From contig CM082577.2 in the NCBI GenBank assembly GCA_040954595.2, forward strand, positions 3,243,703 to 3,307,702: a stretch of DNA of 64,000 bases, given 5' to 3'. Position numbers and translations under genes: made by a program. Positions 169-34,290 of this stretch are shown here, piece after piece (position 1 is the stretch's first letter; each line of letters begins with the position of its first letter). This DNA comes from Balanoglossus misakiensis. Taxonomy: Eukaryota; Animalia; Hemichordata. Under the pieces are notes generated by a model. That model was not told the origin of the DNA and did not search any database. It saw nothing but the letters and a program-made list of their open reading frames with translations.

Positions 169-914
169 ATCCAAAGATAACGTGCGTCTGCGACCCACCA
201 TGTAATCGAAAGGATTCCTGCAAGACACGGGGAGCCTGCTACACCAGTTATACGATGAACGGAAACGATGTCATGGTCATCAGAGGATGCGTCAAGTCGA
301 AGAAAGTAACTGGCATTTGCAACGGTCCAGGGATGATGGTAAGTTTGTGCCTGGAACAGTTTTAACGATTCCGCGATGTTTATGTCGACAGTTCTTTTAT
401 AGTCAAACGCAGACATTAAGCGCTTGAGAAACGTTTATGTAGGTCAAAGAACGCCTCAACATCCATTTGTTTCCCTCTTAAATTGACAAGCGTTTAATTA
501 TTTCGGCAAACCTTTGTGGGAAACAGTATAAACGTTATCGAATGACACTGCCAACGCACTCGTAGACGTCACGAGAATTAAAATTACCTTCTCTCGACCA
601 AAGCATGCGTTTGTTGTTTCTTTCCTCAGGACATCAGCTGCTGCTTTGACAGTATGTGCAACCAGACCCCGTCGGACGAGGACAGCTACTCATACTCCCA
701 ATACGACAACGCGTACGGCGGCGACGACGCCAACATCGGCGGTGGCGACAAAGGTGACGCCAACGTCGGCGTCAACGATGGCGGTAACGGTGATGGCAAC
801 GCTGGCGGTGGCGGTGGCGGTGACGGTGGCACCCACACCCGTGGACGTAGAAGTAGTAGTAGCAGCAGCAGCAGCAGTAGTAGCAGCAGTAGCTCCTCGT
901 CAGAAGAAAAATGA
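169..914 (+). CDS. Secreted type I TGF-beta/BMP-receptor-ectodomain-like (three-finger) protein, copy 1; 5' partial (signal exon expected upstream of the window)
   Basis: Exons 169-338 (AG 167-168, phase 1; GTAAGT at 339) and 630-914. Translation DPKITCVCDPPCNRKDSCKTRGACYTSYTMNGNDVMVIRGCVKSKKVTGICNGPGMM|DISCCFDSMCN, then an acidic Gly-rich tail, RGRR and S17-EEK. Ten Cys; same exon phases as copies 2-5; no hydrophobic TM or GPI segment. Confidence 0.85.
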
Positions 915-2049
915 AATACTGAGTCGAAGAGGTAGCAGAGATGACGGAAAGAATCAGAAATTGAGACATTTATATTAACCTAGAACCAATCTCTGCGGTG
1001 TATACCCTCATCGAAATATAGCAAGGATCGACCCCTGACCACGAGAGCATAGGCCTACCTTGAGATCTAACTTAGACTAGACTTCGCCCGGTCATGAAGT
1101 TAATAGTCATGGATATATATTTCTTATATAATCTGTATATACAGAAGTCATATAAACAGTAAATATTCTTGGGATGCGAGATTTGTGCTTATTACTTCGT
1201 TTCACACGGTCTGACCTATCTTATATTTTCTTCCGACATGAAATTTTTTAACCGACTCTTATACTTCAGGTTTAATACTCCCGGATTAACCCCAACGCCT
1301 CAATATGTTGTTTTAAGATCATAAGCATCACGACACGTGGCACGTTAAAATTGTAACAACATCAATCAGGATCATCTCCGGGCTTATTTACAACAATTGC
1401 TAACAACCGATAATGGAAGTTGGCGCACTTGATCTCTTCATTACATTAATTGAGCATTTCCTGAATGTATAGTTTGGTCAATTAGACATCTTTATCTGCA
1501 TTAAACGTGTCACTGCATGTATTCATAGTGCGATGGCGAAAATAGTTCAAGGAGAAAATTGAAATTGTAGTCATGCTTATCCTGTTCGTCAGTGTGAAAC
1601 TCTAAAAGAAGGACAAACAGACAGACAGAAAGACAGACAGAATTATATTTATTCCTACCCTCTTCTTTACTGAAGGTGTACTTACAGTATTCTGGAATTA
1701 ATACCATCGAGATTAACTACCATTGACAAAAAACAATGGTCACTCAAAATTCCTAACTTTCGAAATGTAATTCTGTCAAAGTGTTAACATGTCCATTTCC
1801 TCTATTTCACATTTTCCTGTACCCTTTCCCCGAAATCATTATGTTTCTCTCGCGAGCCTGAGGCACTTGCAATGATGTAATTTGAATAGGGAGTGACGCC
1901 CCCACGTTTACCTGCAAGGCATGCAGTGAGTGACCAGCTGGACATTCACTAACTCGGACTATTTGTTCGTGTGGCAGCGCTAAGTAAGGTAGTATTATAG
2001 TGCTATCCTCAGGAAATCTATTGGACCGTGAATCTGATTCTATGCGAGC

Positions 2050-2978
2050 ATGTCGAAGGTGGCGGTTTTTATGGTAGCCGTGCTCTTAGCAGTGATGGTG
2101 TCGGCGATCAAAGGTAGGTCATCTGTGTGCCACGATAAAGGAAAATCAAGTCTACACTTCGTTCTCTTTTCGCCGTTCACACGCAGAAACCGATGTATGT
2201 GGTCACTCGATTCTCTGCTGTTTTAGGCGCCGGTCAGACATGACATGACGGCCAATCCATGCATGCAAACTCTAGTCCAGAATAATCATGGTATACCTCT
2301 CTCTCTCCCCCTCTTAATCTCTCCGTCTCTCTCCCTCTCTCTCTCGCCTATTGTTTGCTTATCAGGTGACAGCATCCTCTTCCCAATTTCCGAGGAGGGA
2401 TCAGGGTTTGATGAACCTGTCAAAGTCTTATGTAAATGCAGTGTAGCCTGTGGCAGCAAGGATGTGTGCACAACCTTTGGTTCCTGTTTCACCAGCGGTC
2501 ACGGAGGCGGTAAATCAGTTCGAGGCTGTCTCAGTCCGAAGTCGGCTGGACGACTCTGTAACAATCCACTGACAACTTTAGTAAGTATACAAGCGATACG
2601 CGATTTTTGGAATGACGGCAGCATTACTGATATTATCAGTAACCTATGGAGGGAGGGGGGAGGGAGAGAGAGAGAGAGACAGAGACAGGCAGAGACAGAC
2701 AGACAGAGACAGACAGAGAGAGAGCTAACAAACGGACTGACAGACAGACAGACGGACGGACGGACGGACAGACAGACAGACACACAGACATACAAAGAAA
2801 TATTGGGTCAGTTTAATTTGAAATATATATAGATCGGGTATTGGCAAGAATTTGTGTTCGTTGGGTTTCCATATATCGCATTGAAGTTTTGCAATGATGA
2901 TTTTCTAATCAACGGACCGAATTATATTTTTGCCTGTAGGATGTGAGATGCTGTCGAAGTGACTTCTGTAATAAATGA
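2050..2978 (+). CDS. Secreted type I receptor-ectodomain-like (three-finger) protein, copy 2 (~105 aa)
   Basis: Exons 2050-2113 (signal peptide MSKVAVFMVAVLLAVMVSAIK), 2366-2580 (...VLCKCSVACGSKDVCTTFGSCFTSGHGGGKSVRGCLSPKSAGRLCNNPLTTL) and 2940-2978 (DVRCCRSDFCNK*). All introns GT-AG and the frame is preserved. Confidence 0.88.
2652..2790. repeat. Compound microsatellite (GA)n/(GACA)n/(GACG)n in intron 2 of copy 2
   Basis: Direct inspection: gagagagagagagacagagacaggcagagacagacagac...gacggacggacggacggacagacagacagac. Confidence 0.85.
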
Positions 2979-3657: not shown

Positions 3658-4663
3658 ATGAGGACGTTCGTGTTGTTGGCGGTTTTATTTTTCGTTGGAG
3701 CGGTTGACTCTGCTATAGACAGAAAAAGACGAGGTATGTTTGTTGGTTTCATCATCCTACCTTTCCTGACATTAAAACTGGCCGTTGACTGGCTAGTAGA
3801 TATGCAACGTTTTTTTTGGTCATTTCGTGTCCCAGTAGTAGTACGGTCATTTGGGAGATTCGCACTCGAGCCTATTATTAATTAGTTTTTTTTTTCGAAA
3901 TTAGTTTTTTTCGAAGTTTCAGTTTGCGTTTGAATCAACCATCACGGGACACCTTCATTTACATGTCTTGTCCGTCTAGAAATGGTAATTGTAGGGGACG
4001 TGCCTGTCTCGGTTACCTGTTCGTGTCATCCACCTTGCGATGGTAAAACAGAATGCCAGACCTTCGGATCGTGTTACACGTCATACGACGCCTTTTTCCA
4101 CATGTCGGCGGGCTGCAACAATGAAGCTGATACTAGACACTGCAAATATATGATGGTGAGTACTATCGATGCACAAGCGGGACAATTTCTTATATAGTCA
4201 TGCATTCATCAAAATGTTGAATCGGGGAACATAGACTTTTGGCAATGGTATGCCGTGTTATGCCAATTTCCTATGTCGTTTTCCGGGCAATGCTAAACCT
4301 GCGGCGTGATTGAGAGAAATTGGCTGAATTTTGTTATTCAAGACACAACGCCACAACCTAGCCATATCCTGCAGGAAGTGTAGACCAGAACTAGAATTAG
4401 AACCCACGTATCTGTTGTTACCAGCAAACACGCATGCGCACTTTACAGGCGACATAGTCTCGATGTCACTGCCACTGTCAGCTTCGGTGCTCGTATCGTG
4501 GTACACGATATAAAATCAGATACAATACTAATGCTACCCGTATTTTCCTTTGTCAAACCCCCAGGACAATCACTGCTGTTTCACGGACTACTGCAATTAT
4601 GTAGCACCGCACGAAGAAAACCAGTACCCTGGTAACCTCCGCCCTCCCGAGCCTTATGAATGA
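3658..4663 (+). CDS. Secreted type I receptor-ectodomain-like (three-finger) protein, copy 3 (~116 aa)
   Basis: Exons 3658-3733 (MRTFVLLAVLFFVGAVDSAIDRKRR), 3980-4155 (alternative in-frame exon start 3995; VTCSCHPPCDGKTECQTFGSCYTSYDAFFHMSAGCNNEADTRHCKYMM) and 4565-4663 (DNHCCFTDYCNYVAPHEENQYPGNLRPPEPYE*). Confidence 0.88.
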
Positions 4664-6232: not shown

Positions 6233-7012
6233 ATGAAGACGTTTGTGTATTTGGCGACTTTGTTGGTTGTTGGAACGGTTCGTGCAGGTTAGTGTTTTTA
6301 TTTATACTGACCTTAATGCTGTAGATTAATTGTAAAATATATTTTTCTCCTCTACGTTTACCCCGCGTTCATTTTACTTCCACCTTTTCCCACGTTCTCA
6401 CATGCTAACCGCCATTTAAATATATTCTGAAAATACTGTCCAGTTTCAGGGGTCGAGACTGTGTCCGTCACGTGTTTCTGTTACCCGCCCTGCGACGGTA
6501 GTGCAACATGCCACACCACTGGATCGTGCTTTTCAACCACTTCCGGCGATTTCTCCCAAGTATATGCGGGATGCAACGACGAAGCGGCCACCGGAAGGTG
6601 CGCGGGCGCTCAGGTTAGTAATCGCAATACGCAAGCTCGGAAACATTTCATATACGTCCGCTCCAACCGTCGTAAACCGCGACCGCTTTACGGCAACGGT
6701 TTCTGCGTTGCCGTGGAGCTGGGGTAGATGACTCTGGCCCGCGCGAATGACCGCTCCATCAACTATAGAATGTTTGCATTTGAAGAATAAGATATAGACA
6801 ATAATGAATGTTTTGATCAATTTCTGTCGTTTTTCTGTACATACAATTTATCTTAGGACGCGAAATGTTGTTTCGTGGACTACTGCAACGACCCTTTCGC
6901 TACCGGCTGGCCTATAGGCGCAGGACCACCCGTGGGCCCGAAGCCGCTGCCGTGTGAAGATGAAGATCTCGACCCGGGGGATGGTGGGCAAATAGGGCCG
7001 ATTGGATTTTGA
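6233..7012 (+). CDS. Secreted type I receptor-ectodomain-like (three-finger) protein, copy 4 (~126 aa)
   Basis: Exons 6233-6287 (MKTFVYLATLLVVGTVRA), 6444 (or 6450)-6613 (VTCFCYPPCDGSATCHTTGSCFSTTSGDFSQVYAGCNDEAATGRCAGAQ) and 6857-7012 (DAKCCFVDYCNDPFATGWPIGAGPPVGPKPLPCEDEDLDPGDGGQIGPIGF*). By eye most similar to copy 3. Confidence 0.88.
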
Positions 7013-8063: not shown

Positions 8064-8070
8064 TATAAAA
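8064..8070 (+). promoter_or_regulatory. Candidate TATA box of copy 5
   Basis: TATAAAA about 180 bp upstream of the ATG at 8247. Motif match only. Confidence 0.35.
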
Positions 8071-8246
8071 CATTGTCTTCCGCCTCCGTGGTGTCATGAA
8101 ACAGCTTGGTTCGCCGCACCATCAATCACCTGTCGTTCGTCAGCGGATGCTTCAGCACCGACACCAGTGGCCGGACACAGAACAAGGACCAGAAAACCAC
8201 GAACGGAAAATCACTGACATTTTCTTTCGATAACACAGCCCTTAAA

Positions 8247-9243
8247 ATGATACCCATAACTTGTTTGTTGGTCGTGTTGATGTTGAACGGCGTGGTTGCA
8301 AAACCACAACCCCCGCCACCACCGGGACCACCATCATCGTCGTCATCAGAATACGACAGCGGTGAGTAGAAGGCTTCTCCAGAGTGGGATTATAGGTCTA
8401 TTTTCTATAGTATTGTCTCTGGGGTCTACTACCCCACAGTCTACTTACAAGCGCAAATTTCTGTCAAACTTTCTTCCAATTTTCCAACTAATTGTTATAC
8501 GTGATAGAATGTCATTTTCCACAATATTGAAACTCCTAACTGAAATAGTAGCATGGGAACGCCCTGTTTTCTCTCTATTTTTGTTTTTACCATTCATTGA
8601 TAAACTATATACATGTATATACATGTATATAAAATCAGGAAAGTGACAATATTCTACCTTTTGAGTAGCCCACTACCTTAAAGTATGCATGTCAGATTAA
8701 CCAGACACCAACATTTATTTTGTCATGGTCTAAACGCATGGATACATCTGCATTGAATCTACAGCATCCGAAAGCGATTTTTCTTACCGCCCGCCTCCTT
8801 CTTCGAGTTATTCCGAAGGTTTTGAGCCCATCGAGCCGGCCAAGGTGGTGTGCAAGTGCAACCCACCGTGCGGGGAGAACTACGACCAGAAAGAGTGCGT
8901 CACCTTCGGGTCGTGCTACGCCAGCGTTCACGGTGGCCGTCGGACATTCCTCGGCTGCAACGACGAGATCACTACCACGCATGTCTGCAATTTGCCCATG
9001 CTGATGGTAAGCAATTTGTCGTGCGCGCGACACAAACATGGTCCCGCACAAATGAAAGCGCCGGACATGATCTGAAAATTTCAACTTTAGTTTTTTTTCT
9101 TATGTTTCATGAAAACAAAATCGCTCTTTTCGTTTCAGGATTTCGACTGCTGCAATACCGATTTCTGCAATGATTTGTTCATTCCGGAATCATCATATAG
9201 CTCTGAATCGGAATCCGATTACTACTACGTATCTGAAAAATAA
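8247..9243 (+). CDS. Secreted type I receptor-ectodomain-like (three-finger) protein, copy 5 (~153 aa)
   Basis: Exons 8247-8361 (MIPITCLLVVLMLNGVVAKPQPPPPPGPPSSSSSEYDS), 8765-9006 (...VVCKCNPPCGENYDQKECVTFGSCYASVHGGRRTFLGCNDEITTTHVCNLPMLM) and 9139-9243 (DFDCCNTDFCNDLFIPESSYSSESESDYYYVSEK*). Confidence 0.88.
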
Positions 9244-12662: not shown

Positions 12663-15600
12663 ATGAAGAGACTTCAGATGCTTCTGTTCTTCGCGTATGT
12701 CTTGGTCTGTCTCGTGACACCAGCAGCGACGGTAAGTTCTGAAATATATTCACCCGAAGAGAGAAACATTCCGGAAGCCTTGACTAGGGCCATTGAGTAT
12801 CGTTTCTACCGATAGGAAAATTAATAATATAACGTTGACAGATAATCCTGTGATCACCTTGATCATTTTTTCTATTATGACGCAAAATGATGAATGTCAA
12901 CAATTCGTACCGGATGATAAAATAATTTTAAGAATAGTGTCATTTTTCTGGGGTCATGGTCAAATTGAAGACAATTTAGTCTGTTTTATACCGATAAACG
13001 GGAAATCAGAATCTGCGTTTGGAGAACGGCTGCTGTATGTGCGTTTATTTGTACAGTTGTACACATTTTGACGGCATTTGTATTGCCCTGTTAAACTATG
13101 ATAATACTGATGACTGATGACTTATATCGTTCTCCGCCTGTTCCATGGGAATGCCCTTTGCGGAAGATTAACGTCCTTGTCGCAAAAAAAGAGCGGGAAA
13201 ATAATGATGAGTGATTAATATGCGAATGACGTGCATGCGATGAACACGCGGACAGGATGATTAACAAACTTATCCATCTGACTTAAAACAATGGTGATGA
13301 ACTACCAGGCACGATAGTCCATAGATTCGACAACAGCGTCGTCGCGGATGAATACTGGGGGCTTGCGATCATTCCTTGATGTACTTTGTATGTCTTTAGC
13401 GCCGACCGATTAGCCGGGGTTGTGGTGATTACGACATTACAAATGGTCTAAATGAACCATCGCGATCCATTACCTTATACCTAAATGTGATTCATTTTGT
13501 CATTTGTCTGAAATTTTCGCGAGGCGGTCTCTATACTTTCACCAGGAAAGACATCAAGAGATGCGTTATACCCACAGACGCGCCGACGTTGATTTTCCGG
13601 CCTGTCGCGTCTGACGGGCTTCTGGAGAACTCACGTTGACCATCATTGAAGTAGCGCGAGAGATTTTCATGATCAAAAACCACGACTGGTCCAATTTCAA
13701 CGCTGCTTCACTTTTATCAGCTCTTGTATATATCCGGCTCTCATTGATTATTCCATGTCCGTCTCACATAGTACGTTATTATAAAGTCATAAAGCAGAAT
13801 CTACGCCTAGTAAAAAGCTTTCCCGACCGAATCCCCAAAGGCTTCGGGCAAGCCGCTCGCACTGAGAATTGCGCCCGTTACATTGTCGGAATTCATCGGG
13901 AGCTGTAAGTCTCTTAGCCATAATGAAAATGGACAGGATATAGGGTTTCATTAGACATGGTTCAGGCTAACCAGAATCCTTCCCCAGGAAGGGAATTTCA
14001 AAAAGTAGCGCAAAAGATTGGCGCTGGGAAATAACTGGCCATTTTTGTTTTGTGATGTTTAAACCGTTCTGCTCGTGATCGGGTTGGGGGAGTTTCGATG
14101 TATATGATGGCACATGCGCATGCGCTTCCCAAACCACAGAGACTCTGTCGTAACCTTGTAATTAAAGATCGTTAGTGGAAACTACATCATTCTTCAAATG
14201 AGTAGTATTGAAGGTTTTTTTTACTTCTAAATCACAGTTTCCTCCAACTGTTTCCCCTGTTTTCCCTGAGGTCAAGAGGACCCCGGGAGGAGCGATTTGC
14301 GTTCGATCTGTATGGAGATTAAAAGTTAAATGCTGTACAAACCCGCATGTAAAACTCGTTCACGGAAATCAAAAAGACAATTTGCATTGCTTAAGATCGG
14401 GTCAAATGAAGTCAAAACTACACTTTATTCGTTTTTCTCGAGACTGGGGAACTCTTACAGAACAAATTCCATACGTCATTCGTGTATAATCAATTATCTC
14501 GGTCATTTCACAAGGCAGATAGGAATCCAAAGACATTTCCTGCATGGCCCATATAGATTTCTTTTATCAAATGCAATCTTGTAGTCCGCGCGGGGAAAAA
14601 AACTTGATTAAGTGCGCGCTCGTACCATTGTACGGAAAGTAATCACAATTCTGTGATATGGATGTATTTTTGTTGGGGTTTATTTAATAAATGCAACCTA
14701 ATTAGTACCACTGATTTTTAAATTGATTACTTCAACTTAATAAAATATTCTTTGTGTCACATTGTGTTTGACATCTTGCGTTGTAACGCAGCTTAAGCTG
14801 GCGTGAATATAGACGTGTTTCATCTTTGTTGTCATATATATTTCTACTAACTGATCGAGACGATGCTCTGAACGCATACAATGTATCTTCAGCCTATAAT
14901 CGTCAAAGTGTCCTCTCAGATTAAAGGATATAAAAAACTGTTTCGAAGATTGACAGTGATTTCCTCCGAGAATACATCAGAAATGGATCGGATAAATTGG
15001 GATGGGCTATAATCGCCCTCCTTTTATTTCCATGCCCCGGGAGTTGCGTCGATAGTCCGTGCATCGGGACAATGATTGAAAGCCTTCGCAGGTCAAAGTT
15101 CGCTATAAGATCACATAATCACTGATGGAATGTACTTTCCTTAATTTGCCTAATTCACGACACCTGGATTAACGTCGTTCGGGATTATTTATTCAGAGGA
15201 GTCTGCTTAAGTGTAATCTCTTGCGACTTCGTTCTCTCTTTATTTCCATTTTATTATAGCCTTCATTTAAAAAAGCGAGTGATATTTCACCATGTTAGCA
15301 AGACCAGACATTTTCACTGGACGTAAGAAATTATTTCCGATCCTATGGCATGTTTATACAGTTACTGAATGCCGACCAAAGATCGTAAAATGAATTAAGC
15401 TCTACTGCCGAGTCGTAAACCACAAACCGATCGAGTCGTTGTGTCATGTTTTTATTGAAATGCTCAACCGGAGATTAGCAACCTTTGCGGCAAAAACAAG
15501 GTTCGACACGTTCTCGATCACGCGCTATTAATTTAACAGTTTGTACTCTCCCTCGCTGGTTTGATTCGTTTATTCGCGAAGATGATAAAAGTTAGATCGT

Positions 15601-18911: not shown

Positions 18912-20020
18912 ACTATATGTAGGTCATCGGATTTTCCCGCGCTGAAAGAACCGTTCGTTAAGAAGAGTTCGGATTCACAACTTTTCCAAAAATGCTGACA
19001 AATATTTAGCACACGATTCATAAACTACTCATTTTCGTCTATCTGTGAATATGTAAATGTTATTAATTCATAATAGTTCAAAATCACGAATTTACATTAT
19101 TACAAATTTCATCTTCCGGGGAATCATGCTGCGCATGTCCACGACAATTACATAGAAAAGTAAGTTTGACAATAATCGGATGTCCAAGACTTTGCTGGCT
19201 TTTATGTATGGCGCCACCAGCGTCTTTCAGAGGTTGGAGGCGTTTCTTTCGCCACATCTTGTTGGTCGATTTAGCGGATTAATACAATAATACGGATGCA
19301 TACTTAAAGATGAAATGATTGTAGCAATATTGTCAACCGCTCTTACAATTTTATAAAGATGCAAGTACCCATTTCCCCATGTATATCCTTCAATGGTGCC
19401 ATCTAACCTTGTAAACCACCCGGCAATTTCCTGTATATCACATATATGTACTTATATTATCATAGAATTTGCCGAATTTTGTCCACGGATTTTATACGTT
19501 CTAATACGATGTCTTTGCTGTATATAACCATGTAAGTATGCGATTGCCCGTAACCGTTCAGAACTCACTATTCTGTAGAATTTTGATGTAATAAATTTTT
19601 AAAGCATGTTCTTTTCGTCATATAGGCCTACAGAAAACCTTATGGCAAAATGTAAGTTTTCATAAGGTGAAATAAAAACAAGGTCGCCGCGATTGTAATG
19701 CATTTTCTTTCCATGATGATGATGATGACGACGACGACGGCAACAATATCGATTAAAGCTGCAAGCAGCATTGAAGGGGCACAAGCATGGAGATAATAAC
19801 CATTAGACTCCATTAAGGGTTGTACCATGATTCAAATGCGTAGGCTGGATGTGTAGATATGGGGAAGTAGACAACCACCCAAAATGCATGTCCTACAAGT
19901 ACAAACACAACAACCAAAAGTGAACTTCTATGTTATGTAAGTATTTCAGTAAGTACTTAAAAGGTCAGCTGAGGGTACCCCAAAAATTTGGCCAAAAATT
20001 TGGATTCCTAACCCTAACCT

Positions 20021-23000
20021 TCCGTATTCAGACTTGCCCAAGTGAACCGCGACAAAAAAATGACCAAGTTTCCCTACATGTTTCTTATACCCGACAGATA
20101 AAAAAACGCAGCGTAGATATTGAAATGAATTGGATTTATGAAAATGATAAAAATTAAATTGATAATGTCGTTAAAGTTCTCAAAAAAAAGAAATAGAAAA
20201 AAATGGTCTCGAACCTACATCAGTAGACACCTTCAGGTAAAAGACTAGCCTTCCTGAACCCTTCGCCATCACAATGTGTACTCGAAACACTCGGAAATTT
20301 ACCGCACTATATTGCAGCATAACTACCATGATCTTATTTGCACCGCAGCGGTGCAAATTCTTATTTGCACCGCAGCGGTGCAAATAAGAGTTCGCAGCGG
20401 TGCAAATAAGAGTCCCCTCCCCCGAAACGATCTGCCCGTTCTTTATTCACTCCTCGACGACAAAAACGTTTTATTACGGCCCACATAACGACTTTTTCGC
20501 TCCTTGGTTGGTCATGCGGACGGAAAGACACGGTTTTAGCGAGTTTATCTTTCTCTCTCCTGAGCACTCCGTATTCAGACTTGCCCAAGTGAACCGCGAC
20601 AAAAAAATGACAAAGTTTCCCTACATGTTTCTTATACCCGACAGATAAAAAATGCAGCGTAGATATTGAAATGAATTGGATTTATGAAAATGATAAAAAT
20701 TACAATGATAATGTCGTTAAAAGTTCTCAAAAAAAAAATAGAAAAAAAGTGGTCTCGAACCAACATCAGTAGACACCTTCAGGTAAAAGACTAGCCTTCC
20801 TGAACCCTTCGCCATCACAATGTGTACTCAAAAACTCGGAAATTTACCGCACTATATTGCAGCATAACTACCATGATCTTATTTGCACCGCAGCGGTGCA
20901 AATTCTTATTTGCACCGCAGCGGTGCAAATAAGAGTTCGCAGCGGTGCAAATAAGAGTCCCCTCCCCCGAAACGATCTGACCGTTCTTTATTCACTCCTC
21001 GACGACAAAAACGTTTTATTACGGCCCACATAACGACTTTTTCGCTCCTTGGTTGGTCATGCGGACGGAAAGACACGGTTTTAGCGAGTTTATCTTTCTC
21101 TCTCCTGAGCACTCCGTATTTAGACTTGCCCAAGTGAACCGCGACAAAAAAATGACAAAGTTTCCCTACATGTTTCTTATACCCGACAGATGAAAAATGC
21201 AGCGTAGATATTGAAATGAATTGGATTTATGAAAATGATAAAAATTACAATGATAATGTCGTTAAAAGTTCTCAAAAAAAAAATAGAAAAAAAGTGGTCT
21301 CGAACCAACATCAGTAGACACTTTCAGGTAAAAGACTAGCCTTCCTGAACCCTTCGCCATCACAATGTGTACTCAAAAACTCGGAAATTTACCGCACTAT
21401 ATTGCAGCATAACTACCATGATCTTATTTGCACCGCAGCGGTGCAAATTCTTATTTGCACCGCAGCGGTGCAAATAAGAGTTCGCAGCGGTGCAAATAAG
21501 AGTTCCCTCCCCCGAAACGATCTGACCGTTCTTTATTCACTCCTCGACGACAAAAACGTTTTATTACGGCCCACATAACGACTTTTTCGCTCCTTGGTTG
21601 GTCATGCGGACGGAAAGACACGGTTTTAGCGAGTTTATCTTTCTCTCTCCTGAGCACTCCGTATTCAGACTTGCCCAAGTGAACCGCGACAAAAAAATAA
21701 CAAAGTTTCCCTACATGTTTCTTATACCCGACAGATAAAAAATGCAGCGTAGATATTGAAATGAATTGGATTTATGAAAATGATAAAAATTACAATGATA
21801 ATGTCGTTAAAAGTTCTCAAAAAAAAAAATAGAAAAAAAGTGGTCTCGAACCAACATCAGTAGACACCTTCAGGTAAAAGACTAGCCTTCCTGAACCCTT
21901 CGCCATCGCAATGTGTACTCAAAAACTCGGAAATTTACCGCACTATATTGCAGCATAACTACCATGATCTTATTTGCACCGCAGCGGTGCAAATTCTTAT
22001 TTGCACCGCAGCGGTGCAAATAAGAGTTCGCAGCGGTGCAAATAAGAGTCCCCTCCCCCGAAACGATCTGACCGTTCTTTATTCACTCCTCGACGACAAA
22101 AACGTTTTATTACGGCCCACATAACGACTTTTTCGCTCCTTGGTTGGTCATGCGGACGGAAAGACACGGTTTTAGCGAGTTTATCTTTCTCTCTCCTGAG
22201 CACTCCGTATTCAGACTTGCCCAAGTGAACCGCGACAAAAAAATGACCAAGTTTCCCTACATGTTTCTTATACCCGACAGATAAAAAATGCAGCGTAGAT
22301 ATTGAAATGAATTGGATTTATGAAAATGATAAAAATTACAATGATAATGTCGTTAAAAGTTCTCAAAAAAAAATAGAAAAAAAGTGGTCTCGAACCAACA
22401 TCAGTAGACACCTTCAGGTAAAAGACTAGCCTTCCTGAACCCTTCGCCATCACAATGTGTACTCAAAAACTCGGAAATTTACCGCACTATATTGCAGCAT
22501 AACTACCATGATCTTATTTGCACCGCAGCGGTGCAAATTCTTATTTGCACCGCAGCGGTGCAAATAAGAGTTCGCAGCGGTGCAAATAAGAGTCCCCTCC
22601 CCCGAAACGATCTGACCGTTCTTTATTCACTCCTCGACGACAAAAACGTTTTATTACGGCCCACATAACGACTTTTTCGCTCCTTGGTTGGTCATGCGGA
22701 CGGAAAGACACGGTTTTAGCGAGTTTATCTTTCTCTCTCCTGAGCACTCCGTATTTAGACTTGCCCAAGTGAACCGCGACAAAAAAATGACAAAGTTTCC
22801 CTACATGTTTCTTATACCCGACAGATAAAAAATGCAGCGTAGATATTGAAATGAATTGGATTTATGAAAATGATAAAAATTACAATGATAATGTCGTTAA
22901 AAGTTCTCAAAAAAAAAATAGAAAAAAGGTGGTCTCGAACCAACATCAGTAGACACCTTCAGGTAAAAGACTAGCCTTCCTGAACCCTTCGCCATCACAA

Positions 23001-25788
23001 TGTGTACTCAAAAACTCGGAAATTTACCGCACTATATTGCAGCATAACTACCATGATCTTATTTGCACCGCAGCGGTGCAAATTCTTATTTGCACCGCAG
23101 CGGTGCAAATAAGAGTTCGCAGCGGTGCAAATAAGAGTCCCCTCCCCCGAAACGATCTGACCGTTCTTTATTCACTCCTCGACGACAAAAACGTTTTATT
23201 ACGGCCCACATAACGACTTTTTCGCTCCTTGGTTGGTCATGCGGACGGAAAGACACGGTTTTAGCGAGTTTATCTTTCTCTCTCCTGAGCACTCCGTATT
23301 CAGACTTGCCCAAGTGAACCACGACAAAAAAAAATGACCAAGTTTCCCTACATGTTTCTTATACCCGACAGATAAAAAATGCAGCGTAGATATTGAAATG
23401 AATTGGATTTATGAAAATGATAAAAATTAAAATGATAATGTCGTTAAAAGTTCTCAAAAAAAAAAATAGAAAAAAAGTGGTCTCGAACCAACATCAGTAG
23501 ACACCTTCAGGTAAAAGACTAGCCTTCCTGAACCCTTCGCCATCACAATGTGTACTCAAAAACTCGGAAATTTACCGCACTATATTGCAGCATAACTACC
23601 ATGATCTTATTTGCACCGCAGCGGTGCAAATTCTTATTTGCACCGCAGCGGTGCAAATAAGAGTTCGCAGCGGTGCAAATAAGAGTCCCCTCCCCCGAAA
23701 CGATCTGACCGTTCTTTATTCACTCCTCGACGACAAAAACGTTTTATTACGGCCCACATAACGACTTTTTCGCTCCTTGGTTGGTCATGCGGACGGAAAG
23801 ACACGGTTTTAGCGAGTTTATCTTTCTCTCTCCTGAGCACTCCGTATTTAGACTTGCCCAAGTGAACCGCGACAAAAAAATGACAAAGTTTCCCTACATG
23901 TTTCTTATACCCGACAGATAAAAAATGCAGCGTAGATATTGAAATGAATTGGATTTATGAAAATGATAAAAATTACAATGATAATGTCGTTAAAAGTTCT
24001 CAAAAAAAAAAAATAGAAAAAAAGTGGTCTCGAACCAACATCAGTAGACACCTTCAGGTGAAAGACTAGCCTTCCTGAACCCTTCGCCATCACAATGTGT
24101 ACTCAAAAACTCGGAAATTTACCGCACTATATTGCAGCATAACTACCATGATCTTATTTGCACCGCAGCGGTGCAAATTCTTATTTGCACCGCAGCGGTG
24201 CAAATAAGAGTTCGCAGCGGTGCAAATAAGAGTCCCCTCCCCCGAAACGATCTGACCGTTCTTTATTCACTCCTCGACGACAAAAACGTTTTATTACGGC
24301 CCACATAACGACTTTTTCGCTCCTTGGTTGGTCATGCGGACGGAAAGACACGGTTTTAGCGAGTTTATCTTTCTCTCTCCTGAGCACTCCGTATTTAGAC
24401 TTGCCCAAGTGAACCGCGACAAAAAAATGACAAAGTTTCCCTACATGTTTCTTATACCCGACAGATGAAAAATGCAGCGTAGATATTGAAATGAATTGGA
24501 TTTATGAAAATGATAAAAATTACAATGATAATGTCGTTAAAAGTTCTCAAAAAAAAAAATAGAAAAAAAGTGGTCTCGAACCAACATCAGTAGACACCTT
24601 CAGGTAAAAGACTAGCCTTCCTGAACGCTTCGCCATCACAATGTGTACAGAAAAACTCGGAAATTTACCGCACTATATTGCAGCATAACTACCATGATCT
24701 TATTTGCACCGCAGCGGTGCAAATTCTTATTTGCACCGCAGCAGTGCAAATAAGAGTTCGCAGCGGTGCAAATAAGAGTTCCCTCCCCCGAAACGATCTG
24801 ACCGTTCTTTATTCACTCCTCGACGACAAAAACGTTTTATTACGGCCCACATAACGACTTTTTCGCTCCTTGGTTGGTCATGCGGACGGAAAGACACGGT
24901 TTTAGCGAGTTTATCTTTCTCTCTCCTGAGCACTCCGTATTCAGACTTGCCCAAGTGAACCGCGACAAAAAAAATGACCAAGTTTCCCTACAAGTTTCTT
25001 ATACCCGACAGATAAAAAACGCAGCGTAGATATTGAAATGAATTGGATTTATGAAAATGATAAAAATTACAATGATAATGTCGTTAAAAGTTCTAAAAAA
25101 AAAATAGAAAAAAAGTGGTCTCGAACCAACATCAGTAGACACCTTCAGGTAAAAGACTAGCCTTCCTGAACCCTTCGCCATCACAATGTGTACTCAAAAG
25201 CTCGCCAATTTACCGCACTATATTGCAGCATATAACTACCATGATCTTATTTGCACCGCAGCGGTGCAAATTCTTATTTGCACCGCAGCGGTGCAAATAA
25301 GAGTTCGCAGCGGTGCAAATAAGAGTTCCCTCCCCCGAAACGATCTGACCGTTCTTTATTCACTCCTCGACGACAAAAACGTTTTATTACGGCCCAATAA
25401 CGACTTTTTCGCTCCTTGGTTGGTCATGCGGACGGAAAGACACGGTTTTAGCGAGTTTATCTTTCTCTCCCCTGAGCACTCCGTATTCAGACTTGCCCAA
25501 GTGAACCGCGACAAAAAAATGACCAAGTTTCCCTACATGTTTCTTATACCCGACAGATAAAAAACGCTGCGTAGATATTGAAATGAATTGGATTTATGAA
25601 AATGATAAAAATTACAATGATAATGTCGTTAAAAGTTCTCAAAATAAAAGCAATAGAAAAAAAAAAGTGGTCTCGAACCAACATCAGTAGACACCTTCAG
25701 GTAAAACACTAGCCTTCCTGAACCCTTCGCCATCAAGATGTGTACTCGAAAAAGTCGGAAATTTTCCGCACTATATTGCAGCATAACT
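20021..25788. repeat. ~545-bp tandem repeat array, about 10.6 near-identical copies
   Basis: Identical spurious ORFs recur at 20361, 20906, 21451, 21997, 22541, 23086, 23634, 24181 and 24727 (period 544-548). Units differ mainly in poly-A length and a few SNPs. Each complete unit has the palindrome TCTTATTTGCACCGC-A-GCGGTGCAAATAAGA. Confidence 0.97.
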
Positions 25789-26254
25789 CCGTAATAAAGT
25801 TTGTGTACGCGTTCCCTGGGCCTTTGGTGTAATGGTGTAATGGTAGTACATTTCGTATTTCACAGTGTGGTGGCGCTCTCAGTGGGCGGTAAGAAACATT
25901 CTCCAGTCCGCTGTACATGGACATCGTTTAATAGTACATTGTTTAGAGATACCAAAATAGCCCCTATTTAATAGAAGCTGCATAACTCGTTGGACATTTG
26001 GTGTTTACAGCTTCTGTCTATTCCGGTGAATCTGCTGCCAAATCGACGCAGACATGTGTACATGCGCGAACGGTTGACATACCTACTCGTCCACACTGTC
26101 TTGAGCAGACACCACAAATATCGTTCAACCCGTCATAAATGACGTCATATCCGCCATAATTGTATTTTAGTGGTCATTGGCTCCCCTTTTTACTGGTCGT
26201 TACGCTGGGTGGCCTGACATGCGCAATGGGGCAAACAATACCCCGTCTTCGAAA

Positions 26255-26261: not shown

Positions 26262-26392
26262 AGAATATCGCCCATAACATCGTAAACTAACTAAAGTCGA
26301 CAGTCCATGCACAAGTTACTCTCGGGGAAGGGAACTGAGAAGTTTCGAGGTATTTTGTGTTCTGCAGGTTCCAACGGAGTTTAGGAAGCGAC

Positions 26393-27691
26393 ATGAAACT
26401 CCTGTATCCACGACACACCGTTGTTGCCGGTGTTACGGTATTTTTCGCAGTGTGTTTTGGTCGAAGTGATGCAGTAAGTATTCCTATCATCAAAATGTTT
26501 TAACTACGCTACGAGATGAGTGTTGGCCATACACTATGTTAAAAAGTAATGAAGTACTTATGTGGAGCAGTGCAATATCGTGGGGTATATTCTTCGTTTG
26601 AGAATTATAGCAAATATCATGTTTCCGCGTGTAATCTGTTGTAGGCTACTAGAATTAGAGTTTGTGTGCAATGCGCTATAGTGCCATGGTTGTTTTGCAG
26701 ACGATGGAATGCCAATGTCAAATCGATGGAGCTGTCAGACAGACAGACTGCCATGTTAAGAGACATCAAAACACCATTCAATAGATTTATTAGAACCATC
26801 AATAATGATTTACGAAGGACCAAATGTGGTGATCGAGTGCGTCAACAAGGGATGTCTCCTCCTTGGCATCTATCTATGTATCTACAAATGTATCTGTCTG
26901 TCTGTCTTTCTTTCTTTCTTTCTTTTTGTCTGTCGGTCTGCCTGTCTGTCTGTCTAGATTCTGTCGAAGAATTGCCATTCTTGTCCTGAAATTGTAACTG
27001 TTCTAACATTTTTCGTCACGTCCACTGTACAGTTTTTGTTGACTTATGTTCTTGTGGCAAACATCCTCGCGAGAAGATCTTTGCCCCCAAAAGCCATTTA
27101 ACTTGAAAGCCTTGGTTCAGCCTGTCAGGTTTGCATGCAGAAGTGAGCGTGGGGCACTTTCACTGATTTATAGTCAAAGGCAGTTGTGTTTATTAATCCG
27201 CACAGAGCCTTTCAAGTGTCAGTGACCATATGTATTTGGCAGCGTTTCAGACCCATTTCAAAACATCCATGTTAACGTATCTCCCGTTTCATCGCGTTGA
27301 TTTGTTACTTTTACTTCTCAACTTCGACTTTTATTTTCTCGCAATGAAAGTATACTGCCTTCCTGTTTGTCTGCAGTTTCCGCACGTCACGGGGACGGAT
27401 TACTGCGATACGGTCACCCGAGCGTGTCAGCAGGTTCCCGGATGCTACGGCCAGATCCAGCAGGACATCTACAGTCTCTTCTGGAACTGCTTTGGCCTGG
27501 ACCCGGACAACGACGTCTGCCCGCCCAGGTGTGAGCGGGCTGTGAGGGCGTTCGTCACCAAGAGCGACACCTACCGCCAGCTGGCCGACTGCAACTGCAA
27601 CGACGGGCGCGCCGGTATCTACGTCTCCACGGAGCAGTGTCGGGCGACACAGCGGCTGTACAGGCCGTGCCGAGGGGCCTTGGAAAACTGA
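26393..27691 (+). CDS. Secreted single-domain GDNF-receptor-alpha/GAS1-like protein B (~131 aa)
   Basis: Exons 26393-26473 (MKLLYPRHTVVAGVTVFFAVCFGRSDA, GTAAGT, phase 0) and 27377-27691 (FPHVTGTDYCDTVTRACQQVPGCYGQ...NC...CPPRC...LADCNC...C...PCRGALEN*). Same 10-Cys pattern and exon structure as protein A; GC3-rich coding bias. Confidence 0.85.
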
Positions 27692-29002: not shown

Positions 29003-32000
29003 ATGATCCGTCTCGCCTTCTTTGCCGTGTTGTTGACGCTGGCTGTCGGTAAAGGTAAGACCCACGGCCTGCACATGTGACAACAAGGATTGACCTCGAC
29101 TCATGCAGCCACGGTTGACTACAAACATTCGTACTCTCTGCACTATCTGTGTTGGCATAACCATGCCAGCGTTTTGCACGCTCGTTGCATCCCATTCGGT
29201 GAGACCGTCAGACGGTACTATAAATTATGAAGAGGAGCGTTAGCTGCCAGAATAATGAATGGTTACATTTACACAAATATTTGTAGGCTTACATTTATCA
29301 CGACCGAACATCACACTCTGACCTCGAGCTCTGTCTGGCACGAAGAGCTGACCTTGAAGATATGCACACCAGTGATCTGGGACAGGCGTGTGACACTTTT
29401 GTATACTGATGTCTTGGCCAGTGCGAAATAAACTCATCAATAAACGTTGCTTTGAGGAGGTCCAAAAATGATGATGAATCTAGCAAGAACAAGGGCTGCT
29501 AGATTGTGAGCGCCAAACGCATGGCAAAGGGTCACGAATTATCAATGAATGATAGATTTAAAACAAGATATACATGTAGGGAAGGGCACATCCATCTTTA
29601 TCGGGACAACCTTGATACGATTCAGATAGTAAATTATCAACAAACTCCAACACAGAATCTCAGTGACCGGGTAGATTAATTGACATAAGCACAAAGATCA
29701 GTGTCATCACCACTGGAAGTAAACCACTAGCACGTTTTTTTCTTGTTCTTACAGCACCGGTGAAGCAACTCGAATCCAAGACCGCCATCAAACATGAGTA
29801 TATAGTCGCGTTTGAAAGTAACATCACAGACGAAGCGGGTGAGAGCATTTCGCTTACGGTCAAATGTTTCTCTCTCACAGTCGGAGCATTCGGTCATTTC
29901 ACAGTTTAGCGATGACAGCTGAACACGGTGTAACTTTGCCATAAAAGAGGCAGGGAACATATTTAGATTAGCACAGTCAACTACGTTTCACGACCTCTCT
30001 CATCATACCTTTTCATTTATTAACAACGTGTTACTTTCTTCGAATCGTCCGTAGTTGTGAAGCACATGAAACAAGTACAGACCGTCTTGTCGCTTAGCAA
30101 CGAAACCAAGCCAGCAGCCAAGCTGTTGAGCGAGTTCAATATGCAGGGTTTCAAAGGATACGCTTTCAGGGGGTCACCAAGGTATGTTCAAAGCTTCATG
30201 TTCAAAGTTTCATGCTACATTTTCGCGTTATGACGGGCAAACCTGGACTGAAAGATTCAGTCGGGTGCATGCGCTCCGGCGCATTGCTTACGACCCTATA
30301 TAGGCCTACAAGTTACAATCTTGCATTTCTTTTACGCCTTATAGTGTTTTAGAGAAGATACGGAACATGCCGGATGTGAAGTACATCGAAGCTAACCAGG
30401 TACGGACCGTGTGACGTCATACATGCACTATATGTTGACTCGACCAATCATATACAAGCATGTGCTGTCGTCATGAAAATATGAAGGAGCCATTTTGATG
30501 AATGAGAAAGCGTGAAATGGGATTTGTTGTTTCCAAGTTCGTGACCAGACTCATGGAGTCTGAATCAACGCTCTTAAAACCCTTTCTTCGAATCATGTTG
30601 AGTTTCATGTTTCACTCTTTGTGTTCTAACATCTATTAAAGGTTTTCAGAGCTGTCCAGACAAGTTGTGTCGATCAGCAACGTGCCACGTGGGTGAGTCA
30701 CACTCAGTCATTTTGATCACATTACTTAAGTCCATAAACTGCTTCGTTTTGATAAGTGACTACATGACAGGGAGTCGCGCTGCCGACAATAATGTGCTAG
30801 TCGCTATCGTTCTACTTGGTTTGTAGTTCATACCTTGTCATTGTGTGTTTCAGGGCTTGGTGCGGACCACTGAACGCGACTTGCTTTTGGATGGCATTTA
30901 TACATACGACGGTGAGATTTCACTCGATCACCATTTTTCCGATTACCTTTTTTTGCGTTCGGTGCCTGCGCACAGGAATGGACATGTGCAGGCTAACGAG
31001 GTGTTGGGTCTGACCCAAGTGTTTCATGAGCTACGGATTGCGATGGTAGATGTTGGTGTGATCGATAGACTGCGTGCAACGCTTACAGTACATGTGGGAC
31101 TGTACGTGAGTCTTAATTATATGATCGCGCCCACTGAGGGATTAAGAATGATTGATTGACCGCGAAAAATCCAATGAAAATAAATATAACAGGTGGTCTT
31201 TTCTCTTCTAGACGACGCATCTGGACAGGGAGTCACTGCATACGTAATCGACACGTAAGATTCTTCAAAGACGTTTTACTAAATATTCTCGAGCCCTTCA
31301 GTGTCATTTCAGACGCCAGTAACTAATGTGTTGTATATATCTTTTTTTATCGAGCGGTAAACTAAATTACGCGTGCTTTGTTAATAATTCAATAAAAAGC
31401 GCAATACCGAGTAAATATAAAACTCAGTAAAGTTTCAATAGTAGGCAGCCGTATACACGTGAGTCACAGTTTCTGATCGAGACAATAGTGTGATGTGATT
31501 AATCGTGCGAGTTTCGCTTTCGATTTCTGTTTCAGCGGAATTTACACCGAACATGGCGACTTCGGAGGCAGGGCAACATGGGTATTTCTTCTCATTATTC
31601 TCTGCTTGATAGACATCAGGTGAAGCGCGTGATAACTGGGTGGGAACAGGGAATAGACAGACGTCGTAGAAAACAGAGAGACTGGCGAGTTGCTCTTTTC
31701 TGTTTTGGGGTTTCAGAATTCACGCGAAACAGAAGGGTAGCCGTCATTTTATTCTGTGATGCGATACTGAGAACCGACATTTGATACATTTTGTTGCCTA
31801 GGGAACGGATACAATGGAGGACCCTTCTCCGGGAACCGATGAAAACGGACATGGCACTCACGTAGCAGGTAATATTACTGATGTACATGCATAGGGATGG
31901 CCGTTGGTGGCAGTATTACTCACTTCTCAAGTTCTGTACTGCCGTCTATTGACTGCACAGTCATGTAGTCCATTTTCAATAGAACATTACCAGAAGTGAA

Positions 32001-34290
32001 AACGAACCAAAACAGGATTTCCGATCTTTAAACAGTCTATCTCATTCATGTGTGCACATGTTTTGTATAAAGAGCAAAATATTCCTATTGCAGGCACAAT
32101 TGGAGGAACTGAGTATGGCATTGCAAAGAAGGTCGACTTGATTTCCGTTAAAGTTTTGAATAGAAACGGAGAAGGTGACACAATGTAAGAATCTGAAATT
32201 GAACTCGCAAGTTTCCCCGTAGAGTAGAGTTTTGAGCCAAGATTTATCTTACGTCAAGGTAATATTTTTGACATTAGCACCGCACTACAAAGGCTGCATG
32301 CTATATCTTCTTGAGTACATATATCCAAGGCTCGCAGCGTTTGCGTGAGCTTTAAAAGATTCCTTTCTTCCTCACAGTTCCATAATCAATGGTATCCAGT
32401 GGGTTGAAAACCACCACCGCGGGAAGAAGACGAGCAATGCCGCAGGATCTCTTGCGAAGTAAGTTTGCTGTGATAGCAGAGATTAGTAGCCCCGATGTAG
32501 CTCAACAATGTTAATTGAAAATATTGATTCGTCATTCCCTTTTTAAGTCAATCAAAATGTTTGTGAGTTAACTGACATAATTTTCTATTCTCTTCACAGT
32601 ATGTCACTAGGGGGCTCATTTTCTTTAACGATAAATGTTGCTGTTTTAAGCGCCATAGCCTCGGTAAGTTTGTATAATGTATTATGGCCGCCACTTTTAC
32701 GAAAGTCCATTGTGGACGCCATGAAGTCTATATGTACGGTTGTTAAGGGGAAAGTCTGCCTACATGTATCGAAACGCCGCCTCGTAAAACTTCAGTTGTT
32801 AAACCTCGATCCACAGCAAGTTATCGAAACTGCTGCATGTTGTCTGCAATCTACAAATCATATCTAATTCAATTTCGCTTTTGCATCTGCCATTAGGGTG
32901 TGTCTTTCTTTGTGGCTGCGGGCAACGAATTTGGTGCTGATGCGTGCGATGTGTCTCCAGCAAGCGTTATACCCGCGTAAGAGATTATTTAACATATTCC
33001 TATATTTTACATATTCCTAGAGCGATTATTTTACAGGGGTATTGGAGAGATGGGGGAGGGGAAGAAGAGAGAGCCTAGAGGTGCCTCAGAAGGCTATATG
33101 CGACCGAAAGTACGATTCACACTTTTGTCACAAGTTGCTATAGACAGAGAGATTTTTTAGAGTTGGTCACTTTGCTGTTGTTACCTTAGTAATGTCTATG
33201 TCTTGTCTCTCCCCAGAGTAACAGTTGGTTGCTCGAACAACAAGGATGAGTTCTGCATCTTTTCCAACGTTGGCGACTGTGTGAACATACTGGCACCGGT
33301 GAGGGCGCTTTCCAACATCAGTGGTCTGTGTTGCCATGGGCGCGATAGTTATTTTCATGCAGTATCAGTATACCAAAGATGGCTCATATTGCTTTGTCCG
33401 TTCAGTCACTACATGGATTTCACAGATTTCATGGGAGTTGAGAATTACGCCTATAACTAACAAAACTACTTGTCTATTCCAGGGAGAAGGTATAACATCT
33501 GCTTGGATCGGTGGCCAGTTTGCTGATAACACCATCTCGGGTAAGTTTCATTACTGTTGATAGCAGATATGGGTCCAAGGAGTTTTTCCTCGCAAGGAAA
33601 ACCCCGTTGATGTCTCTACGCCCATCAAGATATCTGACCTTTGGTTTTGAACTGAAGTTGTTTTTTTACATTATATTTTTCTTTATCAGGAACCTCGATG
33701 TCAACCCCTCACGTGGTAAGTAGAATTTGTAAACTTGCCCCGCAGTATATCATGCTCCTCAACAGCCTTCTGCACAAAGGTGTGCGAGCAGTCGGCCTGT
33801 TTCGGTTCTTTTATAGGGATTGGAATGACGTAGTCATAGAAACGACTGATTTGCATAAAGATGGCGGTGGCATCATAGCATCATGTACGCACATCATCCA
33901 TTCAATCGCCTGTTCAGTATAACCATGACATTTTTTCTTTCTATCGCAGGCGGGCGTTGCAGCGAAGTATATCAGTTCCCTTGGCAGCACTCCGACGCCA
34001 CTCGAAGTCAAAGAATGGATCGAGATGAAGTGAGATGTGGTTTCTTGTTCGTACTTGCGTTAACTTTATGAAATTTGCCATATTGAAATCGAGACGATCC
34101 TCCTGCGCGTGTCATTTCTTACTGTTCACCAATGCGCGACTTGAAGCCGTCTAGCTAGTTTTATGGCTTTTGCGAATCTTGCTTTCAACCAGCTTGTCTT
34201 TCTTCTTTTTCCAACAGCGCCACCAAGGACAAAATCACGAAGGTTCCCACGGGAACACCGAATAGTCTCGTCTTCATGGAATGTGATTAG
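29003..34290 (+). CDS. Secreted proteinase K-like subtilisin (peptidase S8A) with I9 propeptide, 18 exons, ~405 aa
   Basis: Exons 29003-29054, 29755-29838, 30055-30181, 30345-30399, 30642-30692, 30854-30911, 31212-31254, 31536-31581, 31802-31868, 32094-32184, 32378-32458, 32600-32663, 32897-32976, 33217-33298, 33483-33540, 33690-33715, 33950-34029 and 34218-34290 join into a 1218-nt ORF. Motifs: signal peptide, I9 (YIV, GFKGY, VKYIEANQ), TWGL, YVIDTGI (catalytic Asp), NGHGTHVAG (His), NMSLGG, AAGN (oxyanion Asn), SGTSMSTPHVAG (Ser), GTPN. Confidence 0.95.

What the first reader, a model, noticed from the sequence alone, without database searches (positions are those of the whole stretch)
169..34290. 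Secreted-protein island: two unrelated families of anchor-less receptor ectodomains plus a protease
Seen: eight consecutive + strand genes encode apparently secreted products, with a signal peptide visible in seven. They are five type I receptor-like domains, two single GFRalpha/GAS1 domains and one subtilase. Established: type I receptors bind TGF-beta/BMP cystine-knot dimers, GFRalpha binds the related GDNF cystine-knot ligands, and GAS1 binds Hedgehog. Inference: the same change (keep signal peptide plus one ligand-binding domain, lose the anchor, duplicate in tandem) happened twice at one locus. This suggests a co-expressed growth-factor decoy module or a gland secretion cluster (mucus, venom, adhesive). 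Co-location could also be chance.
Basis: partly seen in the sequence, partly recalled or inferred. Interest (0 to 1): 0.78.

Follow-up and report, generated by a model that had tools for sequence, protein, structure and literature searches.

The report
Acorn-worm secreted receptor-ectodomain gene array
Five neighbouring genes, likely from an acorn worm, encode only the outer domain of a TGF-beta/BMP receptor with no membrane anchor, a design shared by three acorn-worm families; they likely became diversified secreted binding proteins rather than faithful growth-factor decoys, and the protease next door is probably an unrelated neighbour.

Summary
The eight genes are real. Five GT-AG gene models carry a ten-cysteine TGF-beta type I receptor ectodomain (all 20 PDB profile hits are type I receptors, BMPR1A E 3e-7; predicted fold of an orthologue Z 9.3) with no membrane span, GPI tail or kinase. 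Eight anchor-less homologues exist in Ptychodera, Glandiceps and Saccoglossus, three of them apparently on one 146-kb Saccoglossus scaffold, so the array likely predates a 373-million-year split. The two helical ten-cysteine proteins match GAS1/GFRalpha only weakly (Z 5.1); one has a Ptychodera orthologue whose accession is consecutive with two array members. The subtilase is an intact aqualysin/proteinase K type enzyme of a large acorn-worm family; its linkage elsewhere is untested. The decoy reading is neither shown nor excluded: the BMPR1A Phe knob is absent in 13 of 13 members and differs between orthologues, GDNF-family ligands are reported absent from invertebrates, and no expression or binding data were obtainable. 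Best reading: anchor loss, tandem duplication and likely repurposing as secreted effectors, parallel to snake three-finger toxins but from the receptor branch. No description was found in print or in earlier scan notes.

The parts
169..914 (+). g1: secreted type I receptor-like three-finger protein, 5' exon outside the window; exons 169-338, 630-914; Gly/Ser/Asp-rich tail
   Evidence: (78% identical to P. flava P0002 over 68 aa)
2050..2978 (+). g2: 105 aa; exons 2050-2113, 2366-2580, 2940-2978; ends one residue after the Cys box
3658..4663 (+). g3: 111 aa; exons 3658-3733, 3995-4155, 4565-4663
6233..7012 (+). g4: 124 aa; exons 6233-6287, 6450-6613, 6857-7012; one extra cysteine in the tail
   Evidence: (PF01064 E 0.052 on exon 2)
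8247..9243 (+). g5: 153 aa; exons 8247-8361, 8765-9006, 9139-9243; acidic Ser/Tyr-rich flanks on both sides
12663..18911 (+). g6: 136 aa single GAS1/GFRalpha-like helical ten-cysteine domain; exons 12663-12731, 18570-18911
   Evidence: (PF02351 E 0.049)
19990..25790 (.). 545-bp satellite, about 10.6 copies, between g6 and g7 (not part of the coding cluster)
26393..27691 (+). g7: 131 aa paralogue of g6; exons 26393-26473, 27377-27691
29003..34290 (+). g8: 405 aa, 18-exon proteinase K/aqualysin-type subtilase with prodomain; Asp156, His189, Ser349, oxyanion Asn283; no C-terminal extension

Best explanation
Genes g1-g5 are a tandem array of anchor-less TGF-beta type I receptor ectodomains, shared with three acorn-worm families, that likely work as secreted three-finger binding proteins whose surfaces have drifted away from the ancestral BMP-binding site. 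Shown: the domain, its ten cysteines, a common exon plan, no membrane span or kinase, homologues in Ptychodera, Glandiceps and Saccoglossus. Inferred: a copy of the 5' exons of a type I receptor gene lost the transmembrane and kinase exons before about 373 million years ago, then duplicated and turned over; the products are secreted, the disulfide core is kept, the variable loops and helix bind differing extracellular partners, and the acidic, Ser-rich flanks hold them in mucus or matrix. The GAS1-like pair is a second small secreted family whose adjacency is conserved at least in Ptychodera; the subtilase is probably an ordinary member of a large dispersed family.
For: Profile of 13 members against PDB sequences: 20 of 20 hits at E<=10 are type I receptors, best BMPR1A E 3.2e-7, all ten cysteines aligned. 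AlphaFold model of the g1 orthologue P0002 (pLDDT 81): Foldseek best BMPR1A E 3e-5; VIA rows 1-8 are type I receptors, Z 9.3 to 7.2 (BMPR1A rmsd 2.4, 70 aligned), first snake toxin Z 6.5. No span above KD 0.84 after residue 35 in 13 of 13, against 2.9 for the receptor control P0009; tblastn with P0009 hits only ectodomain exons in the window. Eight of the 10 hits among 1.84 billion representatives are anchor-less acorn-worm proteins. Tree: g1+Ptychodera+Glandiceps 88/93, Glandiceps+Saccoglossus 89/89, a ptychoderid group of five 84/90, none starred, 6 of 12 inner branches open. The position of the BMPR1A/ALK4 Phe knob holds G,R,R,G,H,D,G,Y,E,R,N,Y,Q in the 13 members, and G, D, R in the g1 orthologue group. 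Paralogues g1-g5 share 36-54% of domain residues. Flanks have more Asp/Glu than Lys/Arg in 13 of 13, marginally in g3. Anchor loss followed by expansion and new targets is documented for snake three-finger toxins (PMC10421932, abstract); acorn-worm epidermis is highly secretory (PMC13554239, passage).
Against: No expression, proteomic or binding evidence was obtained, so the role is inferred from anatomy alone. A missing Phe knob does not exclude ligand binding: ALK2 signals with its knob Met79 changed to Ala (PMC12415261, passage). The model keeps the short helix before cysteine 7 (residues 65-72) and the 8-9 residue loop of BMPR1A, and the family has lasted a very long time, both compatible with a kept ligand role. 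Synteny rests on accession order and equal contig lengths, not coordinates; a fourth Ptychodera member (XP_070581601) and the two Glandiceps members are not consecutive in accession.
Confidence: 0.45

Rival explanations
1. The five proteins are natural soluble ligand traps or shuttles that bind TGF-beta/BMP dimers at the type I site and tune signalling, each paralogue with its own ligand preference; acidic flanks would help capture basic ligands.
For: Fold, cysteines, loop length and helix of BMP type I receptors are kept; an aromatic residue after cysteine 5 is kept in 12 of 13 and a Ser two further on in 11 of 13; knob is dispensable in ALK2; tethered ectodomains are used as engineered traps; long retention in three families.
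Against: Knob position differs even among orthologues; ALK2-type ectodomains bind weakly without a type II partner; multi-copy turnover is unlike low-copy antagonists such as Chordin or Noggin (own knowledge).
Confidence: 0.3
2. All eight genes form one co-regulated module: type I ectodomains for BMP/TGF-beta, GAS1-like domains for Hedgehog or its lipids, and a protease, made by one cell type.
For: Same strand, all with hydrophobic leaders; g6 orthologue has an accession consecutive with two array members in Ptychodera.
Against: The Ptychodera species is close (73-78% identity), where neighbourhoods are commonly kept without function; aqualysin-like genes are numbered up to 61 in Schizocardium, so one is a common neighbour; a 5.8-kb satellite lies inside the block; the GAS1 match is weak.
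Confidence: 0.12
3. g1-g5 are derived Ly6/uPAR or toxin-like three-finger proteins that only resemble type I receptors.
For: Single-sequence search with P0002 scores cobra cytotoxins (E 0.006) close to ALK4 (E 0.003); language-model features rank a cytotoxin and a SLURP1 cluster first at 0.84 and 0.82, below the tool's 0.9 bar; P0006 and P0008 score CD59 weakly.
Against: Family profile hits only type I receptors; structure ranks eight type I receptors above any Ly6 or toxin; the intron lies before the Cys box, not at the tip of loop 2 as in Ly6 genes (PMC6600238, passage); the only related non-acorn-worm hit is a mollusc type I receptor.
Confidence: 0.08
4. The models are truncated pieces or alternative ends of a membrane receptor gene.
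For: No transcripts from this species were seen.
Against: g2-g5 each have their own start, leader and stop; no kinase exon in the 64 kb; eight NCBI models in three other species also end without a span.
Confidence: 0.03

Closest known systems
TGF-beta type I receptor ectodomains (BMPR1A/ALK3, ALK6, ALK2, ALK4, ALK1, ALK5; Pfam PF01064)
   Same: Ten-cysteine three-finger domain, C-x-C start, T-x-G-x-C, CC-x4-CN box, short helix before cysteine 7
   Different: No membrane span, GS box or kinase; separate multi-copy genes; Phe knob absent; parent subfamily unresolved (fold Z for ALK3, ALK6 and ALK2 within 1; the nearest full receptor has an ALK2-like kinase)
BAMBI pseudoreceptor
   Same: Type I-like ectodomain without a kinase, inhibits receptor assembly (PMC11226491, passage); Atlas TM 0.67-0.70
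   Different: BAMBI is membrane-bound; a separate Bambi gene is listed in Schizocardium
Secreted Ly6/uPAR proteins: snake three-finger toxins, SLURP, PATE, salamander plethodontid modulating factor
   Same: Secreted single three-finger domain; anchor loss then tandem expansion (PMC10421932 abstract; PMC6600238 passages; fold rows)
   Different: They come from GPI-anchored Ly6 genes with another intron position; no toxicity is shown or implied here
GAS1 and GFRalpha domains (PF02351)
   Same: All-helical domain with ten cysteines; best fold row GAS1 7RHQ, Z 5.1, rmsd 3.9, 87 aligned, 21% identity
   Different: One domain only, no GPI tail; scores below thresholds; an unrelated Bacillus protein ties at Z 5.0
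Aqualysin-1 / proteinase K subtilases (S8A), annotated PCSK9-like in acorn worms
   Same: Intact triad, prodomain, best exon hits Serratia-type proteinase K, Vibrio proteinase and aqualysin-1 at E 2e-4 (organism names recalled)
   Different: No PCSK9 C-terminal domain; ordinary family member
Short PF01064-tagged proteins of nematodes and arthropods (ESM Atlas clusters, 118 aa and 264 aa)
   Same: Activin-receptor-like domain without a listed kinase
   Different: Their anchors and origin were not examined; none appeared in the profile search

Membership tests
TGF-beta type I receptor | Ten-cysteine ectodomain with Cys box | tested here: met
   (10 Cys in 13 of 13; Asn after the last Cys in 12 of 13)
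TGF-beta type I receptor | Transmembrane helix | tested here: not met
   0 of 13; control P0009 positive
TGF-beta type I receptor | GS box and Ser/Thr kinase | tested here: not met
TGF-beta type I receptor | Phe knob two residues before cysteine 7 (ALK3, ALK4; not universal) | tested here: not met
   Phe in 0 of 13, Tyr in 2 of 13
TGF-beta type I receptor | Binds a TGF-beta family ligand | not testable with these tools
Pfam PF01064 Activin_recp domain | Score above the gathering cut-off of 20.9 bits | tested here: inconclusive
   Met by 2 of 8 full-length homologues (27.2, 24.1), 20.7 for a third; window genes could be scanned only as single exons, best 15 bits
BAMBI | Membrane span and short cytoplasmic tail | tested here: not met
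Ly6/uPAR and three-finger toxins | Three-finger fold with CC-x4-CN | tested here: met
   (Z 5-6.5)
Ly6/uPAR and three-finger toxins | Intron at the tip of loop 2 (PMC6600238) | tested here: not met
   intron three codons before the CC in 5 of 5
GAS1/GFRalpha | Ten-cysteine helical domain | tested here: met
GAS1/GFRalpha | Significant profile or fold match | tested here: inconclusive
   Pfam E 0.049 for g6 only; Foldseek best E 0.67 with GFRAL/GFRA1 in the first five rows; VIA Z 5.1; no PDB sequence hit
GAS1/GFRalpha | Two or more domains and a GPI anchor | tested here: not met
GAS1/GFRalpha | Binds Hedgehog, RET or a GDNF-family ligand | not testable with these tools
   no partner sequence available
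Subtilase S8A (proteinase K/aqualysin) | Asp-His-Ser triad and oxyanion Asn in order | tested here: met
Subtilase S8A (proteinase K/aqualysin) | I9 prodomain | tested here: inconclusive
   about 100 residues precede the catalytic domain, but single short exons gave no PF05922 hit
Co-regulated secretory gene cluster | Conserved linkage in distant relatives | tested here: inconclusive
   array linked in Saccoglossus; g6 linked in Ptychodera only; g7 and g8 orthologues not found
Co-regulated secretory gene cluster | Co-expression in one cell type | not testable with these tools

The most novel reading that the evidence does not exclude
Acorn worms carry an ancient, co-expressed battery of natural growth-factor traps: gene-encoded soluble type I receptor ectodomains that bind BMP/TGF-beta ligands with paralogue-specific preference, linked to soluble GAS1-like domains that capture Hedgehog or its lipids, an undescribed class of morphogen regulator.
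Probability: 0.12. Interest if true: 0.82.

Novelty: new variant of a known kind. Interest (0 to 1): 0.5.

Why it matters
Secreted three-finger proteins are known to arise from Ly6 genes; this family appears to have reached the same design from the TGF-beta receptor branch and to have kept it across acorn worms for hundreds of millions of years. If the proteins still bind ligand they are a new class of natural BMP/TGF-beta antagonist in a model group for deuterostome axis evolution, and natural templates for ligand traps. If not, they are a second, independent case of anchor loss freeing a three-finger domain for new secreted roles. Either is directly testable in Saccoglossus, Ptychodera or Schizocardium.

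Tried and rejected
No whole genome is held for the window, so linkage could not be read from coordinates. No RNA holder was listed for 1-10000; this is no evidence on expression. A word-seeded search with one 41-aa prodomain exon of the subtilase found no orthologue among 4 candidates (weak). The g6/g7 profile found 1 protein among 4 candidates of 57-198 aa, so GAS1-like relatives in Saccoglossus and Glandiceps are neither found nor excluded. The 13-member profile in the 90% database returned 4 known members among 1091 candidates and nothing new. Metagenome scan with P0002: 520 pattern matches, none confirmed. Atlas search with P0001: no usable feature hit, structure rows all TM under 0.5 on a poor model. 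PDB sequence searches for the helical pair gave no GAS1/GFRalpha hit. P0011 (a 1557-aa repeat protein, E 1e-4) was judged spurious and left out of all counts. The Schizocardium marker table (PMC13554239 supplement 5, cut when stored; searches and part 1 of 400 seen) lists unnamed genes without sequences, so family members could not be mapped to cell clusters; its largest supplement could not be read. No complex was folded: no TGF-beta or Hedgehog ligand was at hand and binding among the neighbours is not claimed. Literature searches that found no description of the family: (six accessions, 0 papers); the supplements of PMC4729200 were not read and could mention it. Earlier scan notes: nothing near, by sequence or by words.
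Full report
Observation. I read bases 1-20500 and 25300-46000 and built gene models by coordinates. Five three-exon genes lie at 169-9243 (g1 lacks its first exon, which is outside the window), two two-exon genes at 12663-18911 and 26393-27691, and an 18-exon subtilase at 29003-34290; all are on the + strand with GT-AG introns and open frames. g1-g5 share ten cysteines and a phase-0 intron three codons before the CC-x4-CN box, and g2-g5 a phase-1 first intron. Their N-terminal cysteine pattern occurs 5 times against 0.03 expected in 30 resamples. Hydrophobic leaders are present in g2-g8 and no later span or GPI-type tail in g1-g7 (hydropathy only).

Source. No genome is held. The only relative found for the helical pair is a Ptychodera flava protein, 73% identical to g6 over 135 residues, and g1 is 78% identical to another. 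The window therefore likely comes from an acorn worm close to, but not, P. flava. Earlier scan notes on other pieces of this genome read it the same way.

What g1-g5 are. Single exons score weakly in Pfam because an intron splits the domain. A profile of the five second exons against 1.84 billion representatives gave 10 hits at E<=0.001: eight short anchor-less proteins from P. flava (3), Glandiceps talaboti (2) and Saccoglossus kowalevskii (3), one mollusc type I receptor with two ectodomains, and one spurious repeat protein that I dropped. Two of the eight pass the PF01064 cut-off. The 13-row profile hits 20 PDB sequences at E<=10, all type I receptors, BMPR1A first at E 3.2e-7. The AlphaFold model of the g1 orthologue matches BMPR1A at Foldseek E 3e-5 and Z 9.3, with eight type I receptor rows ahead of the first snake toxin at Z 6.5. 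Against this, one single-sequence search and the language-model features put cytotoxins close to or above receptors at weak scores. The intron position differs from the Ly6 plan described in PMC6600238 (passages). I conclude that the domain derives from a type I receptor; which subfamily is unresolved. The proteins are not receptors: none of 13 has a span and no kinase exon lies in the window.

Age and linkage. The three Saccoglossus members all report a longest contig of 145,669 bases, the two Glandiceps members 28,985,948, and the four Ptychodera proteins 41,504,173; I infer one scaffold each. In Ptychodera the g6 orthologue and two array members have consecutive accessions (XP_070580386-388), which usually means adjacent gene models (own knowledge); the third member and the Glandiceps pair are not consecutive. 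Harrimaniid and ptychoderid acorn worms split about 373 million years ago (PMC4729200, passages). A tree of 13 domains plus the two mollusc domains groups g1 with Ptychodera and Glandiceps proteins (88/93) and one Glandiceps with one Saccoglossus protein (89/89); these supports are moderate and half of the inner branches are open. The array is therefore likely old, with turnover. No echinoderm, amphioxus or pterobranch member appeared, which is weak evidence given a 56-position profile.

Do they still bind ligand? Not tested directly. The position two residues before cysteine 7 is Phe in BMPR1A and ALK4 (alignments; its knob role in BMPR1A is recalled) and is never Phe in the 13 members; it is G, D and R within the g1 orthologue group. 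Conserved columns are mostly cysteines, glycines and residues around the Cys box. However, the helix that carries the knob is kept, and ALK2 tolerates loss of its knob residue while binding weakly on its own (PMC12415261, passages). All 13 have net acidic flanks, many Ser-rich, 7 with S-x-E motifs and 4 with Tyr in acidic context, which suggests phosphorylated or sulfated tails (motif rules recalled). Multi-copy turnover, variable surfaces and such tails fit secreted effectors somewhat better than developmental antagonists; snake three-finger toxins are the documented parallel for anchor loss followed by expansion (PMC10421932, abstract). I put repurposed effectors at 0.45 and traps at 0.30.

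The helical pair. g6 folds as five helices (pLDDT 73, three-row alignment). GFRAL and GFRA1 fill the first five Foldseek rows but at E 0.67 or worse; VIA ranks GAS1 first at Z 5.1, tied with an unrelated protein and within about 1 of GFRAL and GFRA1. With Pfam E 0.049 three weak signals point the same way, so a GAS1/GFRalpha-type domain is likely but not proven. They have one domain and no GPI tail.

The protease. g8 has an intact triad and its tenth exon is closest to proteinase K and aqualysin-type enzymes. The Schizocardium marker table numbers such genes up to Pcsk9-61 (PMC13554239 supplement 5, first 30 of 252 occurrences seen). Its orthologue was not found, so its linkage is untested; nothing ties it to the other seven except strand and a leader.

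Known or new. Kinase-less type I-like proteins are known as membrane BAMBI (PMC11226491, passages), engineered traps, and soluble splice forms (recalled). Short PF01064-tagged clusters exist in nematodes and arthropods, unexamined. All eight homologues are named 'uncharacterized', and five paper searches and four look-ups in earlier scan notes found no account of the family; the library lacks most subscription papers.

Verdict. A real, apparently undescribed acorn-worm family of secreted type I receptor ectodomains in an old tandem array, next to a small GAS1-like pair with partly conserved linkage and an ordinary subtilase. The island as one functional module is unproven. New variant of a known kind; interest 0.5.

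Noticed in passing
window 19990-25790: 545-bp satellite, about 10.6 copies, 97-99.6% identical; each unit holds a 27-bp tandem pair that is also a hairpin. Possibly a recently amplified transposon end.
   Followed up: partly
window 39088-45343 (+): PRD-class homeobox gene with an Unc4/Uncx-like homeodomain (family name recalled) and an OAR motif (Pfam E 1e-6); an OAR motif is unusual for Uncx as recalled. The secreted genes could be bystanders in its regulatory block.
   Followed up: partly
P0009 (GFO20829.1, Plakobranchus ocellatus): Type I receptor model with two tandem ectodomains and an ALK2-like kinase; may be a real duplication or a gene-model fusion.
   Followed up: partly
window about 10570-10720 (+): A short open stretch after a plausible splice acceptor between g5 and g6; could be an orphan terminal exon (seen).
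   Followed up: no
window 9220-9243 and P0003: g5 and a Glandiceps member end in the same acidic Tyr-rich tail closing with V-S-E-K, although their domains do not group together in the tree.
   Followed up: no
window 42736-42939: Pentanucleotide microsatellite of about 41 copies just before the homeobox exon.
   Followed up: no
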